From: Bacteroidia bacterium
GTDB lineage: Bacteria > Bacteroidota > Bacteroidia > M30B66
NCBI GenBank assembly: GCA_965279035.1
Contig: OZ257142.1
Coordinates: 3,744,001 to 3,808,000 of the forward strand
DNA: 64,000 bases
Direction of reading: 5' to 3'
The notes beneath the pieces were generated by a model. That model made no database searches. It saw only the letters and a list, made by a program, of their open reading frames with translations, and was not told the origin of the DNA. The position numbers and the translations under genes were made by a program. Within the stretch, counting starts at the first letter, position 1. Each line of letters begins with the position of its first letter. Below, in pieces: positions 38,290-56,440 of this stretch.

Positions 38290-39070
38290 CCTACAGCATC
38301 CCCGGATTTCAATCCGGGTTTTTTTGTAGAAGTTAACCTGAAACTCTTTATTTACCCTGCAAGTTCCCCGGATTGAAATCCGGGGGTGCCGAAATGTAGA
38401 AGCTGAGATACGTTGAAGTTGAACAACACTCTTTAGATTTCAAAAGAAGGTGGAGGAGGTTATAGTAGAAAAGAAAAAAGCCACTCTTGTATCGACATTT
38501 GAAGTATAACCTACAGCATCCCCGGATTGAAATCCGGGGTTTTTTGTAGAAGTTAAACTGAAACTCTTTATTTACCCTGCAAGTTCCCCGGATTGAAATC
38601 CGGGGGTGCCGAAATGTAGAAGCTGAGATACGTTGAAGTTGATCACTCTGCTTCTGATTTCTAAAGTTGAAATCCGGGGGTGCTAGAATGCCGATGCTGA
38701 GATACGTTGAAGTTGAACAACACTCTTTAGATTTCAAAAGAAGGTGGAGGAGGTTATAGTAGAAAAGAAAAAAGCCACTCTTGTATCGACATTTGAAGTA
38801 TAACCTACAGCATCCCCGGATTTCAATCCGGGGTTTTTTGTAGAAGTTAACCTGAAACTCTTTAGTTACCCTGCAAATTCCCCGGATTGAAATCCGGGGG
38901 TGCCGAAATGTAGAAGCTGAGATACGTTGAAGTTGATCACTCTGCTTCTGATTTCTAAAGTTGAAATCCGGGGGTGCCGAAATGTAGAAGCTGAGATACG
39001 TTGAAGTTGATCACTCTGACTCAGATTTCTAAAGTTGAAATCCGGGGGTGCTAGAATGCCAAAGCTGAGT
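38290..39070. repeat. Nested tandem array of REP-like palindromes (BIME-like mosaic)
   Basis: Long units start at about 38290, 38510 and 38804 (220 and 294 bp apart), with an internal 74-bp subunit in variable copy number. Core palindrome CCCCGGATT(G/T)(A/C)AATCCGGGG. Confidence 0.9.
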
Positions 39071-46596: not shown

Positions 46597-47604
46597 TTAT
46601 TTGAATGAAACCGTTTTCCCAAGCCATTCGAGTGCGGTACCGTTAAGCAAACGATTTTTTTGAGATTCACTTAAATTCATGTTTTTTATCAGCGTGCCCG
46701 GAATGACTTCGCCAAGCGGAAAAGGATAATCTGAGCCCAAAGCGATGCGCTCAACTCCAGCAAAATCAATCAAAAAACGCAAGGCTGATTCATCGTGAAC
46801 AAGACTGTCGAAATACAAACGATTCAAGTATTTTTCGGGGCTGATGGCATTGTCGATAGCCACTAAATCGGGGCGACACTCGAAACCATGTTTGATACGA
46901 CCCAGTGTTAACGGAAACGAACCACCACCATGTGCAAACGCCACACGTAGCTTAGGTAATCGCTCAAAAATTCCACCGAATATCATAGAACATATTGCAC
47001 GCGAAGTTTCGGCAGGCATCCCAACTAACCAAGGCAGCCAATAGCGCTGAATGTCTTTTTGTCCAAACATTTCCCATGGATGCACAAATACAGCTGCTCC
47101 TAATTCTTCAGCAGCCTGGAATATTTCGAAGAATTCGGGTTCATTCAAATTCAGCTGATTGACATTGCTCCCAATCTGAATTCCAGCCATTCCTAATTCC
47201 TTCATGCAACGTTCCAACTCACGAATAGCCAGTTTGGGCGATTGCATCGGGATTGTTCCTAAACCAATAAATCGATCGGGATAATCGCCCACAATGCCTG
47301 CAATATGATCATTGAGAAATTCCGAAACAGCCAAGGCATCTTCGCCCTTTGCCCAATATGAAAACATCACCGGAACAGTACTTAATACCTGCATATTCAC
47401 CCCATGATGATCACATTCGTGGATTCGTGCTTTCGGATCCCAGCAATTGTTCTGCACCTCCCGAAAAAACTGATCATCCTTCATCATCCGTGCACAGCAA
47501 GGCTTGTGATGATCGAGATGAATAAAACCACCATACCCAAATCGCTCCTTGAAATTAGGAATGTGTTCGGGAAGAATATGGGTGTGGATGTCGATGGTGA
47601 ACAT
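46597..47604 (-). CDS. 2-amino-3-carboxymuconate-6-semialdehyde decarboxylase (ACMSD, amidohydrolase family)
   Basis: [54 protein letters not shown]; neighbour of the 3-hydroxyanthranilate dioxygenase gene. Confidence 0.9.
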
Positions 47605-47642
47605 GCTGATGTGTTGATGTGTATTCTAGGACTTATGCAAGT

Positions 47643-48623
47643 CTATGCAGCGTATTTTTTTAGATCAACATAGGGTGTTTTTCTTTTTACGACAGCAAAT
47701 ACTCTTGATACAAGTTTGTTTTTGACTGCATTGAGTGCACAATTATAATGTTTTCCTTCCTGGATTTTACGCTCCATATATTCTCTCATTTCGGTGTTAT
47801 TTAATACTGCCGAACGCGCCGCCATTGTTAATACTCCATTGATTTTTCGATTTGATCTTCTATCGGTTTGTGTTTTCCCTTTTATGGATGTTCCTGATGA
47901 TTTTTCGAATGGAGCTATTCCACTATAACATGCATATTGACGAGCATTGTCGAAGTATTCAAAGCCATTTGTTGTGGCGATTAAATACCAACTCGACACT
48001 GGTCCAACTCCTTTTATAGATTGAACTAATTCGTCGATTTGACGAAGATTATCATCTGACTTTATCAATGATTTGATTTCCTCTTCTACCAGTTTAAGTT
48101 TATCGTTAAAGGTCTTTAACAGATCCGTTTCGATTTGAAAAACTATATCTACACCAGTGGTTTTTGATGAGTTCTTAAGTCTGTTTTTGATGCCTATCTT
48201 CTCTTTTTCCAGATGCGAACGCATACTCAAGAGCTTTCTCAGCTGCGCTACAGCACTCTTTGATAGTACCGTTGGGCTAAGCTGTTCTGCATGTAATGCA
48301 ATGAAATTTGCGATTCTTTGGGAGTCTATCTTATCATTTTTGCCTCGCTGAAGTCCAATAGAATACTTAATGTTTAAGGAGGATTCCATGTAAAAACAGA
48401 TCTTCTTTTCACTCAAAAACACAGATAAATCCTCGCTATAAATACCCGTATGCTCAAAGCAAATGGCCATCGATTTTACACTCACTTTCAACTGCTTTAA
48501 CCAAGCAAGCATCAGTGTATAACCATCGATATCATTGCTAAAGACGTTGTGCTGAGATTGATTATGTAAATAAACATCCAGCGTTAATTTTGACACATCA
48601 ATGCCAATAAAGTTCTTCTTCAT
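47643..48623 (-). CDS. IS110-family transposase/recombinase
   Basis: DEDD RuvC-like residues in GIDVSK, CFEHTG and KNDKID; C-terminal SIKGVG and GIAPFEKSSG motifs. Confidence 0.95.
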   Translation of the reverse strand: MKKNFIGIDVSKLTLDVYLHNQSQHNVFSNDIDGYTLMLAWLKQLKVSVKSMAICFEHTGIYSEDLSVFLSEKKICFYMESSLNIKYSIGLQRGKNDKIDSQRIANFIALHAEQLSPTVLSKSAVAQLRKLLSMRSHLEKEKIGIKNRLKNSSKTTGVDIVFQIETDLLKTFNDKLKLVEEEIKSLIKSDDNLRQIDELVQSIKGVGPVSSWYLIATTNGFEYFDNARQYACYSGIAPFEKSSGTSIKGKTQTDRRSNRKINGVLTMAARSAVLNNTEMREYMERKIQEGKHYNCALNAVKNKLVSRVFAVVKRKTPYVDLKKYAA

Positions 48624-48639
48624 ACTTTTGTTTTTAAGT

Positions 48640-48790
48640 GTTGCTCTTGGCTAAAACCTTTAATAGATCTCGAAGTCTAAAATTCTAGCTGGCCATTAAC
48701 AACATGGTTAAAGGAAACGGGGACTCATACACACCTTAGGGATTTAAAGACCTAGCTGATGAGATAGTTCACCCCGTTTCTTTGTTTATT
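48640..48790 (-). ncRNA. Putative IS110 bridge RNA (target-binding loop 48714-48780; donor-binding loop 48648-48695)
   Basis: Two stem-internal loop-stem modules whose loop strands match the insertion target and the element's circle junction. The transcript ends are estimates. Confidence 0.75.
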
Positions 48791-48834
48791 TTCAGTCAAG
48801 ATATCTCAACTAAAATAATAGTGCAAGTCTAAAG

Positions 48835-49142
48835 GCTGGTGTGTTGGTGTGCTGATGTGTTGATGTGCTGGTGTGCTGATGAATGATGTGCTGGTGTGTT
48901 GGTGTGCTGGTGTGCTGGTGTGTGCTGGTGTGTGCTGGTGTGCTGGTGTGCTGGTGTGCTGGTGTGCTGGTGATCCCGATAGCTATCGGGAGGTGTGCTG
49001 GTGATCCCGATAGCTATCGGGAGGTGTGCTGGTGTGATGATGAATGATGTGATGGTAAATGGTGTGTTAGTGAGCTGATGGAGATTTGATGAAAGTTGAG
49101 GTTAGTTAATCAGCACATCAACTAATAAGCACATCAGCACAT
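48835..49142. repeat. Degenerate 8-bp microsatellite (GTGCTGRT) with embedded 18-bp palindromes and inverted copies at the far end
   Basis: GTGCTGGT/GTGCTGAT/GTGTTGAT units; TCCCGATAGCTATCGGGA at 48974 and 49005; inverted ATCAGCAC copies at about 49109-49142. The array continues at 47603-47621 on the other side of the IS. Confidence 0.9.
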
Positions 49143-49145
49143 TAC

Positions 49146-49661
49146 TTAAGGTTTCTCCATTACCGTTCCACACTTCTTGCACGTTCTCAATTCTTCGGAG
49201 CCATAAAATTTATTCATTACGGGAGGAAGTTGGGTGACGATATCGGAGACGTGGAGGAATTCTTCGTAGAGCTTGTTGCCACAGGATTCACAGAACCACA
49301 TGAAGGCATCGTCTTCTTGCTTAGCACGAACTAATTCTACCACTAAACCAACCGTATTTTCAGGGCGTTGAGGAGAATGAGGTGTGCGACCGGGAAGCAT
49401 AAAGATGTCGCCTTCGTTGATATGAATATCGACAGGTTTGCCATCTTCGATGATTTTTAGTATCATGTTCCCTTCTAGCTGAAAGTAAAATTCTTCGCTT
49501 TCGTTGTAGTGGTAGTCTTTTCGTTTGTTGGGACCACCTACAACCATCACGATAATATCGTCGGCAGTTTTGAATACAACCTGATTTCCAACAGGTGGTT
49601 TGAGTAAGTGGCGGTTTTCGTCGATCCACTTTTTAAAGGAAAAAGGACGCTGGATTGGCAT
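49146..49661 (-). CDS. nbaC: 3-hydroxyanthranilate 3,4-dioxygenase
   Basis: LKPPVGN, VGGPNKRKDYH, EEFYFQLEG, PHSPQRP, and rubredoxin-like CxxC...CxxC. Confidence 0.93.
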   Translation of the reverse strand: MPIQRPFSFKKWIDENRHLLKPPVGNQVVFKTADDIIVMVVGGPNKRKDYHYNESEEFYFQLEGNMILKIIEDGKPVDIHINEGDIFMLPGRTPHSPQRPENTVGLVVELVRAKQEDDAFMWFCESCGNKLYEEFLHVSDIVTQLPPVMNKFYGSEELRTCKKCGTVMEKP

Positions 49662-50494: not shown

Positions 50495-50545
50495 TGTGCT
50501 GATGATCCCGATAGCTATCGGGAGATGTGCTGGTGTGCTGATGTA
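50492..50545. repeat. Short copy of the GTGCTGRT microsatellite with the 18-bp palindrome
   Basis: GTGCTGAT...TCCCGATAGCTATCGGGA (50506-50523)...GTGCTGGTGTGCTGATG. Confidence 0.8.
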
Positions 50546-55955: not shown

Positions 55956-56142
55956 GGGGCAAAGGTAATTGATGTGCTGGTGTGATGATTTGCTGGTGTG
56001 CTGTTTATTTCTCGGAAGGTTGTGACTGAAGGTTTATACTGATAGATCCTTTATGATCGGATTGAAAATTTGAAGATTTGGAGTTGGTGATTAAATAGTT
56101 GAAGCAACAAGTTGAGCATGTCAAAGCATGCTGATATGCTGG

Positions 56143-56402
56143 TGTGCTCCCTTCGACAAGCTCAGGGAGCAGGGTTTCTCTCCCAAAAGTCCGAACGCTG
56201 AGCCTGTCGAAGCATGCTGGTTAGTTAATGTGCTCCCTTCGACAAGCTCAGGGAGCAGGGTTTCTCTCCCAAAAGTCCGAACGCTGAGCCTGTCGAAGTG
56301 TGCTGGTTTGTTAATGTGCTCCCTTCGACAAGCTCAGGGAGCAGGGTTTCTCTCCCAAAAGTCCGAACGCTGAGCCTGTCGAAGCGTGCTGGTTAGTTAA
56401 TG
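56143..56402. repeat. Three tandem 86-bp BIME-like units
   Basis: Units start at 56143, 56229 and 56315; each has CTTCGACAAGCTCAG and the inverted CTGAGCCTGTCGAAG. Confidence 0.92.
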
Positions 56403-56440
56403 TAAACTTTAGTTCAATTAAATGCTACTTTTGAAAACAG

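What the first reader, a model, noticed from the sequence alone, without database searches (positions are those of the whole stretch)
47603..48860. IS110 bridge RNA programmed against an 8-bp microsatellite; all four guides can be read from the sequence
Seen, in transposase (minus) orientation: the reconstructed empty target is CACACCAGC|ACATC and the circle junction (donor) is CTAGAATAC|CTTTA. The non-coding end folds into two stem-internal loop-stem modules. Module 1 has a 9-bp outer stem (48714-22/48772-80) and an inner stem (48737-40/48751-54). It carries CAUCAGC (48761-48755), matching the left target, and GGUGUGU (48735-48729), complementary to the right target GCACATC with two G:U/T wobbles. 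Module 2 has an outer stem (48648-53/48690-95) and an inner stem (48664-67/48676-79). It carries CUAGAAU (48688-48682), identical to the left donor, and UAAAGGU (48662-48656), the exact complement of ACCTTTA across the junction. Established: IS110 recombinases such as IS621 use a bispecific bridge RNA with this left/right guide polarity. Inference: this is a Bacteroidota bridge recombinase guided to the host's GTGCTGRT simple repeat, which gives it many intergenic landing sites. Target and donor share only one identical base at the crossover (GC versus AC), unlike the identical 2-nt core of IS621.
Basis: partly seen in the sequence, partly recalled or inferred. Interest (0 to 1): 0.85.

Follow-up and report, generated by a model that had tools for sequence, protein, structure and literature searches.

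The report
Bridge-RNA insertion sequence targeting a microsatellite
An intact IS110-family jumping gene carries a two-loop guide RNA whose loops match its own joined ends and the host's 8-base simple repeat; it is a cleanly documented new member of the known bridge-recombinase family, not a new kind of system.

Summary
Window 47621-48834 (minus strand) is a 1214-bp IS110-group insertion sequence. It has a 211-nt non-coding left end, a 326-aa DEDD/Ser recombinase and a 22-nt right end, and the source organism holds about four identical copies.

The left end folds into two stem/internal-loop/stem modules.
- **Module 1, the target loop,** covaries with the flanking DNA in three lineages (window type, L001, L016), always at the same offsets.
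- **Handshake dinucleotides** are also present.

The target, CAYCAGC|ACAYC, is a unit of an 8-bp host repeat that is abundant in three related genomes.

The first core base differs between target (G or T) and donor (A). All 7 left junctions keep the target base and all 8 right junctions keep the donor base. That is the expected result if the top strand, cut 3' of core position 9 as in IS621, fixes the junction sequence. A Chondrinema element with 36% recombinase identity shows the same difference, so the trait is probably clade-wide.

Verdict: a new member of a known kind, of modest interest. RNA expression and recombination activity were not tested.

The parts
47621..48834 (-). Whole IS110-group insertion sequence (1214 bp), counted to include the right-hand copy of the core (AC).
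   Evidence: Junctions were located. In the source run the repeat unitig 47618-48838 has depth 748 against 165-197 in the flanks, which implies about 4 copies, all sharing CAGC|IS|ACA.
47643..48623 (-). Recombinase gene, 326 aa, with an N-terminal RuvC-like DEDD domain and a C-terminal Tnp domain.
   Evidence: PF01548 (E 2.5e-16) and PF02371 (E 2.2e-18). NCBIfam NF033542 'IS110 family RNA-guided transposase', 169 bits against a cutoff of 140. IS621 8wt6 E 1.5e-22 and ISCro4 9t56 E 1.6e-25. D9, E57, D97, D100 and S243 align with IS621 D11, E60, D102, D105 and S241 (catalytic residue names).
48624..48834 (-). Non-coding left end (211 nt) that encodes the predicted bridge RNA.
48790..48815 (-). 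5' hairpin ahead of the two guide modules. It is not conserved in L001 or L016, which carry a longer insert here.
   Evidence: Minimum-free-energy fold; alignment.
48714..48780 (-). Target-binding module: a 9-11 bp outer stem, a 17-nt 5' loop strand, a 4-bp inner stem with a 10-nt cap, and a 14-nt 3' loop strand.
   Evidence: The stems are almost invariant, so covariation gives them no support (0 of 15 pairs change on both sides).
48755..48763 (-). Left target guide (9 nt, CUCAUCAGC). It has the same sense as the last 9 nt of the left flank, and its last two bases are the target core.
   Evidence: Identity to the left flank is 7/9 (8/9 with wobble) in the window, 7/9 in L001 and 9/9 in L016. 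Over the last 7 nt it is 6, 7 and 7 of 7. Non-cognate pairs score 2-4 of 7.
48729..48735 (-). Right target guide (7 nt, GGUGUGU). It is complementary to core + right target on the top strand.
   Evidence: Together with the next two bases it pairs 9/9 (8 Watson-Crick + 1 G.T) with the right junction in the window and L001, and 9/9 Watson-Crick in L016.
48727..48728 (-). Handshake dinucleotide of the target module (AU). It is complementary to donor positions 6-7 (AT of CTAGAAT).
   Evidence: the position rule comes from Hiraizumi 2024.
48640..48703 (-). Donor-binding module: two-part outer stem (GUUGUU/AGCAAC and UGGC/GCCA), internal loop, and inner stem UAGA(C)/(G)UCUA.
   Evidence: All 5 pairs that change on both sides lie in this outer stem. 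Overall 92.7% of cells are paired, against 39-53% when the 3' partners are slid by 1-3 columns.
48682..48688 (-). Left donor guide CUAGAAU, identical to the last 7 nt before the right-end core. The following UU does not match the donor core AC.
   Evidence: Invariant in the 5 complete left ends. The right end reads CCTAGAATAC in 8 of 8 copies.
48656..48662 (-). [quoted passage not shown] The next U (48655) can pair with A at target position 7.
   Evidence: Position 7 of the left flank is A in 7 of 7 left junctions.
47621..47642 (-). Right end (22 nt). It holds a CTTG (TTTG in 6 of 8 relatives) ending 17 nt before the element end, then the left donor CTAGAAT and the core AC.
48824..48831 (-). 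TAGACTTG, a 7/8 match to the Bacteroidota -7 box TAnnTTTG. It lies 20 nt downstream of the right-end TTTG once the ends are joined.
   Evidence: consensus quoted in PMC2483708. This is a consensus match only and was not tested.
48835..49034 (-). Host 8-bp repeat array (CACCAGCA and variants, with a 31-bp unit holding the palindrome TCCCGATAGCTATCGGGA). It forms the left flank and offers 12 more wobble-compatible target sites.
47605..47620 (-). Right flank (16 nt, the remainder of the repeat) between the element and the ATG of the downstream amidohydrolase gene.

Best explanation
Window 47621-48834 is a complete and probably active IS110-group insertion sequence that works like IS621.

Its left end is transcribed into a bridge RNA of roughly 150-190 nt with two internal loops. 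[quoted passage not shown] The 3' module does the same for the joined element ends (CUAGAAU and UAAAGGU, then U).

The DEDD/Ser recombinase cuts the top strands 3' of the shared C (core position 9) and swaps them. This places the element between ...CAGC and ACAY... of the host's 8-bp repeat.

What is shown: the sequences, the fold, the guide/flank covariation, the conserved catalytic residues, the multiple identical copies, and the abundance of the target motif.

What is inferred from the family: that the guide is RNA, that a circular intermediate forms, the order of strand exchange, and a promoter at the circle junction.
For: 1. Protein. Both IS110 Pfam domains are present. NCBIfam NF033542 scores above its cutoff. 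The protein aligns over residues 4-318 with IS621 and ISCro4, and all five catalytic residues are conserved.

2. Anatomy. There is a long left end (211 nt), a short right end (22 nt), no inverted repeats and no target duplication beyond the core.

3. Target loop covaries with the flanks. The 7-nt left guide/flank pairs are CAUCAGC with CACCAGC, TATCAGC x2 and CATCAGC x2; AAAUAGC with AAATAGC; AUCUAUC with ATCTATC. Cognate pairs score 6-7 of 7, non-cognate pairs 2-4 of 7. The right guide plus handshake pairs 9/9 with the right junction in all 3 copies where both are known. The offsets from the module start (19 and 45 nt) are the same in all three lineages.

4. Within one metagenome-assembled genome (G003) there are two right-guide variants: G in L004 and L011, A in L005 and L012. 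These fit the two kinds of right flank seen there, ACATC once and ACATT twice. Left and right ends could not be linked.

5. Donor loop. [quoted passage not shown]

6. Structure. 92.7% of 150 cells are paired, against 39-53% for slid controls. Five pairs show compensatory changes.

7. Activity. There are about 4 identical copies in the source run, at least 4 insertions in G003, and an intact ORF.

8. Target supply. ATCAGCACAT occurs 37, 39 and 16 times in G003, G002 and G001, against 2, 0 and 3 for the reversed control. The window holds 16 wobble-compatible 12-mers.
Against: - No RNA evidence: no RNA run holds the stretch.
- No Rfam family matched.
- The fold z-score is only -2.0.
- The stems of the target module never vary, so they have no covariation support. 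RNAalifold prefers to pair the two guide strands of each loop with each other.
- Only three independent guide lineages could be collected, and just 5 sequences went into the structure count.
- Single 7-mer matches to flanks also occur by chance elsewhere in the element.
- No exact empty site was recovered. The only hint is a contig from a relative below 95% identity that joins 47605 to 48942.
- The two bases of the left donor guide that should face the core (UU) do not match AC.
- Target and donor cores differ in their first base, unlike IS621.
Confidence: 0.9

Rival explanations
1. Same element, different crossover chemistry. Both strands are exchanged, but the stagger covers only the single shared C (a true one-base core), rather than the junction sequence being fixed by the top strand alone.
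For: The junction sequences place the exchange point within one base of the shared C and cannot separate the two models. The IS621 structures do show bottom-strand cleavage.
Against: In IS621 the top strand is cut 3' of position 9. The bottom-strand product is left unligated, with mismatches next to the core. Two preprints report top-strand-only or single-strand transfer (abstract and passages read). The right target and right donor guides here both keep a base opposite position 8, as in a two-base core.
Confidence: 0.3
2. The element is a genuine IS110, but the loop/flank matches are coincidental. On this view target choice is made by the protein, or by DNA homology with the repeat-rich flanks.
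For: Chance 6-7 of 7 matches exist elsewhere in the element. The targets are low-complexity repeats, which raises chance similarity.
Against: In L001 and L016 every changed guide base (3 and 5 of 7 on the left strand; all 5 right-target-pairing bases on the right strand of L016, which fall to 1/5 Watson-Crick against the window's flank) matches that copy's own flank at the same offsets. The Chondrinema relative shows an 8/8 left guide match. The family mechanism is established experimentally.
Confidence: 0.03
3. The window copy is a fixed, no longer mobile relic, and the guide matches only record a past insertion.
For: No circle junction or polymorphic empty site was seen in the contigs laid. 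Contigs cannot show rare forms.
Against: The ORF is intact with all catalytic residues. About 4 copies show 0 differences across the 1221-nt repeat unitig in the source run. Near-identical copies sit in different flanks in other genomes.
Confidence: 0.07

Closest known systems
IS621 (E. coli), the reference IS110-group bridge recombinase and its 177-nt bridge RNA (Durrant 2024, PMC11208160; Hiraizumi 2024, PMC11208158)
   Same: - Same two protein domains, with all five catalytic residues aligned.
- Bridge RNA in the left end: 5' hairpin, then target module, then donor module.
- The 5' loop strand has the sense of the left half including the core. The 3' loop strand is complementary to core plus right half over 7 nt and is followed by a 2-nt handshake.
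- Inserts into a dispersed host repeat.
- Non-canonical rG.dT pairs occur in the natural complex.
   Different: - The recombinase alignment is weak-to-moderate (83.8 bits, E 1.5e-22; identity not computed).
- The core is N-C rather than C-T. Its first base differs between target (G or T) and donor (A).
- The right donor guide is a contiguous 7-mer, not 9 nt pairing discontinuously with 7.
- The left donor guide does not match the core.
- The host is apparently Bacteroidota, so any junction promoter would be of the -33/-7 type rather than sigma-70.
ISCro4 transposase (PDB 9t56)
   Same: It is the best solved-structure match (E 1.6e-25, residues 4-318).
   Different: Only the protein was compared. 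Nothing about its RNA was examined here.
ISPpu9 / ISPpu10 (Pseudomonas putida) and other IS110 members that insert into REP elements
   Same: The target is a multi-copy intergenic host repeat, which gives many identical landing sites (abstracts seen in the listing).
   Different: Here the repeat is an 8-bp tandem microsatellite with interspersed 18-bp palindromes, not a classical REP hairpin. Those papers were not read beyond their abstracts.
IS1111-group elements with seekRNA (Siddiquee 2024, PMC11187229)
   Same: The logic is the same: two short RNA segments pair with opposite strands of the target, and there is no true target duplication (passages read).
   Different: In IS1111 the RNA lies downstream of the gene, in the right end, and the element has subterminal inverted repeats. 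Here the RNA is upstream and no such repeats were seen.
CazIS110-1 (Caloranaerobacter azorensis) top-strand copy-out/paste-in model (bioRxiv 10.1101/2025.10.25.684509)
   Same: The junction pattern here fits inheritance of the top-strand product: the left junction keeps the target's first core base and the right junction keeps the donor's.
   Different: There is no experimental link. Only the abstract and passages of the preprint were read.
Chondrinema litorale plasmid IS110 (WP_284686060.1; L031, L032, L035)
   Same: - Conserved GGGGUGAACUA at the start of the target loop and conserved right donor CTTTAG.
- The left guide GGACUGCC equals the left flank 8/8.
- The first core base also differs between the left (CC) and right (TC) junctions.
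   Different: - 36% recombinase identity.
- The target is different.
- The right guide matches its two right flanks only 6/7 and 5/7.
- Here the right donor guide fits the left-junction core better than the circle-junction core.

Membership tests
IS110 family, IS110 group (bridge recombinase with bridge RNA) | Recombinase with an N-terminal DEDD RuvC-like domain and a C-terminal Tnp domain bearing the catalytic serine | tested here: met
   PF01548 and PF02371. NF033542 at 169 bits against a cutoff of 140. D9, E57, D97, D100 and S243 align to IS621 D11, E60, D102, D105 and S241.
IS110 family, IS110 group (bridge recombinase with bridge RNA) | Long non-coding left end upstream of the gene and short right end (the reverse of IS1111), with no terminal inverted repeats | tested here: met
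   The left end is 211 nt and the right end 22 nt. The ends carry a direct repeat (TAGACTTGCA), not an inverted one. The group rule comes from Durrant 2024.
IS110 family, IS110 group (bridge recombinase with bridge RNA) | Site-specific insertion with no duplication other than the core | tested here: met
   7 of 7 left junctions end (G/T)C|CTTTAG and 8 of 8 right junctions read AATAC|A. The restored motif ATCAGC+ACAT is abundant in the host genomes.
IS110 family, IS110 group (bridge recombinase with bridge RNA) | RNA with two stem/internal-loop/stem modules, target module first | tested here: met
   Fold. 30 pairs are 92.7% paired, against 39-53% for slid controls. Compensatory changes occur only in the donor outer stem (5 pairs), and the target stems are invariant. 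Only 5 sequences were used.
IS110 family, IS110 group (bridge recombinase with bridge RNA) | Target-loop strands covary with left (bottom-strand) and right (top-strand) target | tested here: met
   Three lineages with fixed offsets. Cognate pairs score 6-7 of 7 and non-cognate pairs 2-4 of 7. The right guide plus handshake pairs 9/9 in 3 of 3 linked copies.
IS110 family, IS110 group (bridge recombinase with bridge RNA) | [quoted passage not shown] | tested here: met
   CUAGAAU equals the left donor 7/7, and UAAAGGU is the complement of AC+CTTTA 7/7. Both the loop and the ends are invariant, so there is a match but no covariation.
IS110 family, IS110 group (bridge recombinase with bridge RNA) | Handshake guide bases pairing with position 7 of the other DNA | tested here: met
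   The A after the right target guide faces T7 of the donor. The U after the right donor guide faces A7, which is present in 7 of 7 left flanks (rule).
IS110 family, IS110 group (bridge recombinase with bridge RNA) | Identical core dinucleotide in target and donor, included in all four pairings (as in IS621) | tested here: not met
   The target core is GC (6 junctions) or TC (1), and the donor core is AC (8). Only the second base is shared. The left donor guide has UU opposite the core. Hiraizumi 2024 notes that the first core base is the less conserved one, so this is a feature of IS621 and not clearly a requirement for family membership.
IS110 family, IS110 group (bridge recombinase with bridge RNA) | Promoter rebuilt across the circle junction | tested here: inconclusive
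   (T/C)TTG-N20-TAGACTTG would form across the junction in 8 of 8 right ends, against the Bacteroidota consensus TTTG / TAnnTTTG. The sigma-70 scan found 5 sites against 4.1 expected. The normal spacing of the two boxes is recalled from memory, not checked.
IS110 family, IS110 group (bridge recombinase with bridge RNA) | The RNA is expressed and is required for excision and insertion | not testable with these tools
   No RNA run is listed for this stretch. This needs bench work.
IS1111 group (seekRNA in the right end) | Guide RNA downstream of the gene, and subterminal inverted repeats of 7-17 bp | tested here: not met
   The right end is only 22 nt and the guide modules lie upstream (definition).

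The most novel reading that the evidence does not exclude
In this Bacteroidota clade the first 'core' base is never shared between target and donor. Across at least 9 independent insertions the left junction always keeps the target base and the right junction always keeps the donor base, with no exception among 7 left and 8 right junctions. That would be a natural-history signature that only top-strand information survives bridge recombination in the wild (copy-out/paste-in or top-strand transfer), because a symmetric two-strand exchange across a two-base core would leave mixed outcomes. A second possibility is that the guides place wobble-capable U and G exactly at the two degenerate positions of the host repeat (CAYCAGC|ACAYC). 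One RNA would then read every variant unit of a microsatellite.
Probability: 0.4. Interest if true: 0.5.

Novelty: new member of a known kind. Interest (0 to 1): 0.35.

Why it matters
It adds a compact (1214 bp, 326 aa) and apparently active bridge recombinase from a phylum where none has been characterised. All six guide elements can be read from the sequence, and three natural guide/target pairs already show that it can be reprogrammed.

Its mismatched first core base gives a built-in marker for which DNA strand's information ends up in the product. That question is currently debated for IS621 and CazIS110-1.

For genome biology, it shows an 8-bp microsatellite serving as a multi-copy landing pad, in the way REP elements do for IS621 and ISPpu9.

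Tried and rejected
- **Own genome.** Not held, so other copies in the source organism could only be inferred from unitig depth.
- **Rfam.** Nothing relevant at E up to 10. The best hit was a spurious snoRNA match in the microsatellite.
It returned 5 loci, 4 of them useful.
It returned 10 loci, of which only L016 and L017 belong to this subfamily. The other 8 are 24-30% relatives and were not analysed.
- **Viral contigs.** A 16-nt pattern gave 4 chance matches with no bridge RNA around them. An 18-nt pattern gave none.
- **Order-level genome searches.** 24 genomes around G003 and 146 around G001 gave no further copies at E 1e-60 and 1e-70.
- **Plasmid collection.** Only relatives below 40% identity were found. 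The second Chondrinema element (L033/L034) was looked at, but its ends were not resolved.
- **Protein search.** 13 clusters at 56% identity or above, almost all metagenomic, two of them on contigs of 143-219 kb.
- **RNA evidence.** No RNA holder is listed for the stretch.
- **Empty site.** A contig from a relative in run X6 joins 47605 to 48942, which skips the element. It has a 30-nt side and 7 other letters in its 147-nt laid piece (about 95% identity), so it is only a weak hint.
- **Sigma-70 promoter and terminator scan.** Not above the shuffles.
- **Supplements.** I therefore do not claim that the unequal core is unpublished.
- **Model rejected.** A model with AC duplicated on both sides (target ATCAGC-AC-ACAT) is rejected because 0 of 7 left junctions carry AC before CTTTAG.
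Full report
**Observation.**
- A 326-aa ORF lies at 48623-47643.
- It is preceded by a 211-nt non-coding stretch that begins CTTTAGACTTGCAC at 48834.
- It is followed by 22 nt ending CCTAGAATAC at 47621.
- The 9-bp stem GAAACGGGG/CCCCGUUUC, the inner stems and the four 7-mers sit at the stated coordinates.
- RNAfold recovers the first module and part of the second. The z-score is -2.0, and 7 of 200 shuffles fold as well.
- The only correction concerns the outer stem of the second module. UGGC/GCCA plus a further GUUGUU/AGCAAC helix fits better.

**The protein and the element.**
- The ORF has both IS110 Pfam domains (PF01548 and PF02371).
- It passes the NCBIfam equivalog 'IS110 family RNA-guided transposase' at 169 bits against a cutoff of 140.
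- It aligns over residues 4-318 with the solved IS621 and ISCro4 recombinases (E 1.5e-22 and 1.6e-25).
- D9, E57, D97, D100 and S243 fall on the IS621 catalytic residues D11, E60, D102, D105 and S241 named by Hiraizumi 2024.
- No whole genome is held for the window.
- Laying the contigs of the source run shows a 1221-nt repeat unitig (47618-48838, no differences) at depth 748, against 165-197 in the flanks. This means about four identical copies. All share CAGC before the element and ACA after it.

**Related copies.** Scans of public genomes and metagenomes gave a small set.

| Locus | Recombinase identity | What is held |
|---|---|---|
| L001 | 75% | complete copy |
| L016 | 67% | complete copy |
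| L002 | 89% | right end only |
| L017 | 93% | right end only |
| G003 (one MAG) | about 90% at DNA level | four left ends (L004, L005, L011, L012) and three right ends (L010, L013, L014) at contig edges |

- L006-L009, L015 and L030 are re-fetches of the same places and were not counted.
- That leaves 7 distinct left junctions and 8 distinct right junctions, from at least 9 insertions.
- Every left junction reads (G/T)C|CTTTAGACTTGCAC. Every right junction reads CCTAGAATAC|A.

**The target loop.** In all copies the 5' strand of the first internal loop is 17 nt and the 3' strand 14 nt.
- The last 7 nt of the 5' strand are CAUCAGC in the window type, AAAUAGC in L001 and AUCUAUC in L016.
- The corresponding left flanks are CACCAGC, TATCAGC (twice) and CATCAGC (twice) for the window type, AAATAGC for L001, and ATCTATC for L016.
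- Cognate identity is 6-7 of 7, and 9 of 9 over the full 9-nt guide in L016. Non-cognate pairs score 2-4 of 7.
- On the 3' strand, bases 2-10 pair with the right junction (donor positions 6-7, core, five flank bases) at 9 of 9 positions in each of the three copies where both are known. The window and L001 each have one G.T pair.
- The window's G pairing with ACATC, against L001's A pairing with ACATT, is a compensated change.
- All five right-target-pairing bases of L016 match their own flank (ATTTA); against the window's flank they score only 1/5 Watson-Crick.
- G003 holds both right-guide variants (two of each) and both kinds of right flank (ACATT twice, ACATC once). Its left and right ends could not be linked.
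- Copies in runs X5 and X6 carry the A variant.

*Control.* Scanning each whole element for its flank 7-mers shows that 6-7 of 7 hits also arise elsewhere by chance, including an exact one in the window's ORF. A single copy would therefore prove little. The weight lies in the identical offsets (19 and 45 nt from the module start) in three lineages, and in the many changed bases that all follow their own flank.

**The donor loop and handshake.**
- CUAGAAU is identical to the 7 nt before the final AC of the right end.
- UAAAGGU is the exact complement of AC+CTTTA across the joined ends.
- Both loop strands and both ends are invariant in every copy, so this is a match without covariation.
- The geometry follows IS621 as described by Hiraizumi 2024 (passages read). 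There, a 7-nt right guide pairs with positions 14 to 8, and two handshake bases then pair with positions 7 and 6 of the other DNA after strand exchange.
- Here AU after the right target guide faces AT of the donor.
- The U after the right donor guide faces A at target position 7, which is present in 7 of 7 left flanks.

**Structure.** On five left ends, the two-module structure has 92.7% of 150 cells paired, against 39-53% when partners are slid by 1-3 columns. Five pairs change on both sides, all in the donor outer stem. The target-module stems never vary and so say nothing either way. RNAalifold, left to itself, pairs the two guide strands of each loop with each other. In the family model the protein holds these loops open.

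**The core.**
- The left target guide ends GC (UC in L016), exactly as the left flank does.
- The right target and right donor guides both end GU, which pairs with AC.
- The donor core is AC in all 8 right ends.
- So only the second base (C) is shared. The first base is G or T in the target and A in the donor.
- The right target guide meets the target core through U.G (U.T in L016) before exchange, and meets the incoming donor core perfectly afterwards.
- All 7 left junctions keep the target's base and all 8 right junctions keep the donor's.
- This is what follows if the top strands are cut 3' of position 9, as in IS621, and the top-strand product fixes the sequence.
- That fits three published remarks. 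Bottom-strand products of IS621 are unligated and mismatched next to the core (PMC13626964). IS621 mainly excises a single strand (bioRxiv 2026, abstract). CazIS110-1 integrates mainly by its top strand (bioRxiv 2025).
- A one-base stagger would give the same sequences, so the two cannot be separated here.
- Hiraizumi 2024 already notes that the first core base is the less conserved one.
- A Chondrinema litorale plasmid element with 36% recombinase identity has the same architecture. Its left guide GGACUGCC equals its flank 8/8, and its right donor CTTTAG is conserved. Its core is CC on the left and TC on the right. The inequality therefore looks like a clade trait and not a peculiarity of this copy.

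**The target.**
- GTGCTGRT occurs 29 times in the window against 2.5 expected. It forms an 18-copy array next to the element.
- Allowing rU.dG and rG.dT, the guides read CAYCAGC|ACAYC. The window has 16 such 12-mers, all on the minus strand and 12 of them in the adjacent array. About 0.03 would be expected by chance on my own arithmetic.
- The restored motif ATCAGCACAT occurs 37, 39 and 16 times in G003, G002 and G001, against 2, 0 and 3 for the reversed control. It often recurs at 8-bp spacing.
The caveat is that most array units in the window need one wobble in the left guide.

**Promoter (inference only).** A (T/C)TTG ends 17 nt before the element end in 8 of 8 right ends, and bases 4-11 of the left end read TAGACTTG. 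Joined, this gives TTTG-N20-TAnnCTTG, close to the Bacteroidota -33/-7 consensus quoted in PMC2483708. The usual spacing is recalled from memory, not checked. A sigma-70 scan finds nothing above shuffles.

**Comparison and novelty.**
- Every defining feature of an IS110-group bridge system that sequence analysis can test is met, except an identical two-base core.
- Durrant 2024 predicted bridge RNAs in 85.7% of IS110 elements and analysed thousands of guide/target pairs. I could not see its supplementary tables.
- The subfamily is small and almost wholly metagenomic: 13 clusters at 56% identity or above.
- I file it as a new member of a known kind. The unequal first core base is a modest, possibly useful variant.

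**Limits.**
- There is no RNA or activity evidence.
- Only three guide lineages were available.
- No exact empty site was found.
- The host phylum is inferred only from the record titles of relatives.

Noticed in passing
window 48961-49034; L010 about 240-270: A 31-bp tandem unit joins the 8-bp repeat to an 18-bp palindrome (TCCCGATAGCTATCGGGA). The same palindrome, again beside CAGCACAT-type repeats, flanks a copy of the element in a different metagenome-assembled genome (G003). This looks like a REP-like intergenic repeat family shared across these Bacteroidota.
   Followed up: partly
window 46597-49661: The element and the repeat array sit between a 3-hydroxyanthranilate 3,4-dioxygenase gene (49661-49146) and an ACMSD-like amidohydrolase gene (47604-46597). 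All are on the minus strand. The element ends 16 nt before the amidohydrolase ATG. Its right end carries a TAnnTTTG-like box (TAGACTTG; TAAATTTG in relatives) reading outward, so it may drive or uncouple the downstream gene.
   Followed up: no
window 47633-47642 and 48822-48831: A 10-nt direct repeat, TAGACTTGCA, lies near both ends of the element. In relatives the right-end copy reads TAAATTTGCA. It may supply both promoter boxes at the circle junction.
   Followed up: partly
window 38373-39051 and 56113-56403: Two unrelated tandem repeats: a 294-bp unit (2.2 copies, 95% matches) containing 74-bp sub-repeats, and an 86-bp unit (3.4 copies, 93% matches).
   Followed up: no
window 47643-48623 (protein residues 128-251): There is a weak NCBIfam hit to the TIGR-Tas RNA-guided endonuclease model (E 1.4e-4, 21.9 bits, far below the cutoff of 100). 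A preprint in the listing reports a link between IS110 and Nop5-family proteins; that this weak TIGR-Tas hit reflects the same kinship is my own recollection, not checked in any call.
   Followed up: no
L031/L032 628-885; L033/L034 about 1-246: Two distinct Chondrinema litorale plasmid IS110 elements (35-36% identity to the window protein) begin with the same CTTTAGGTTTG / CTTTAGATTTG left end. The right-donor sequence therefore seems conserved far beyond this subfamily.
   Followed up: partly
window 50496-50543, 55970-56003: Further short arrays of the same 8-bp repeat contain unoccupied, guide-compatible sites (CATCAGCACATC at 50504). All are in the same orientation as the occupied one.
   Followed up: no
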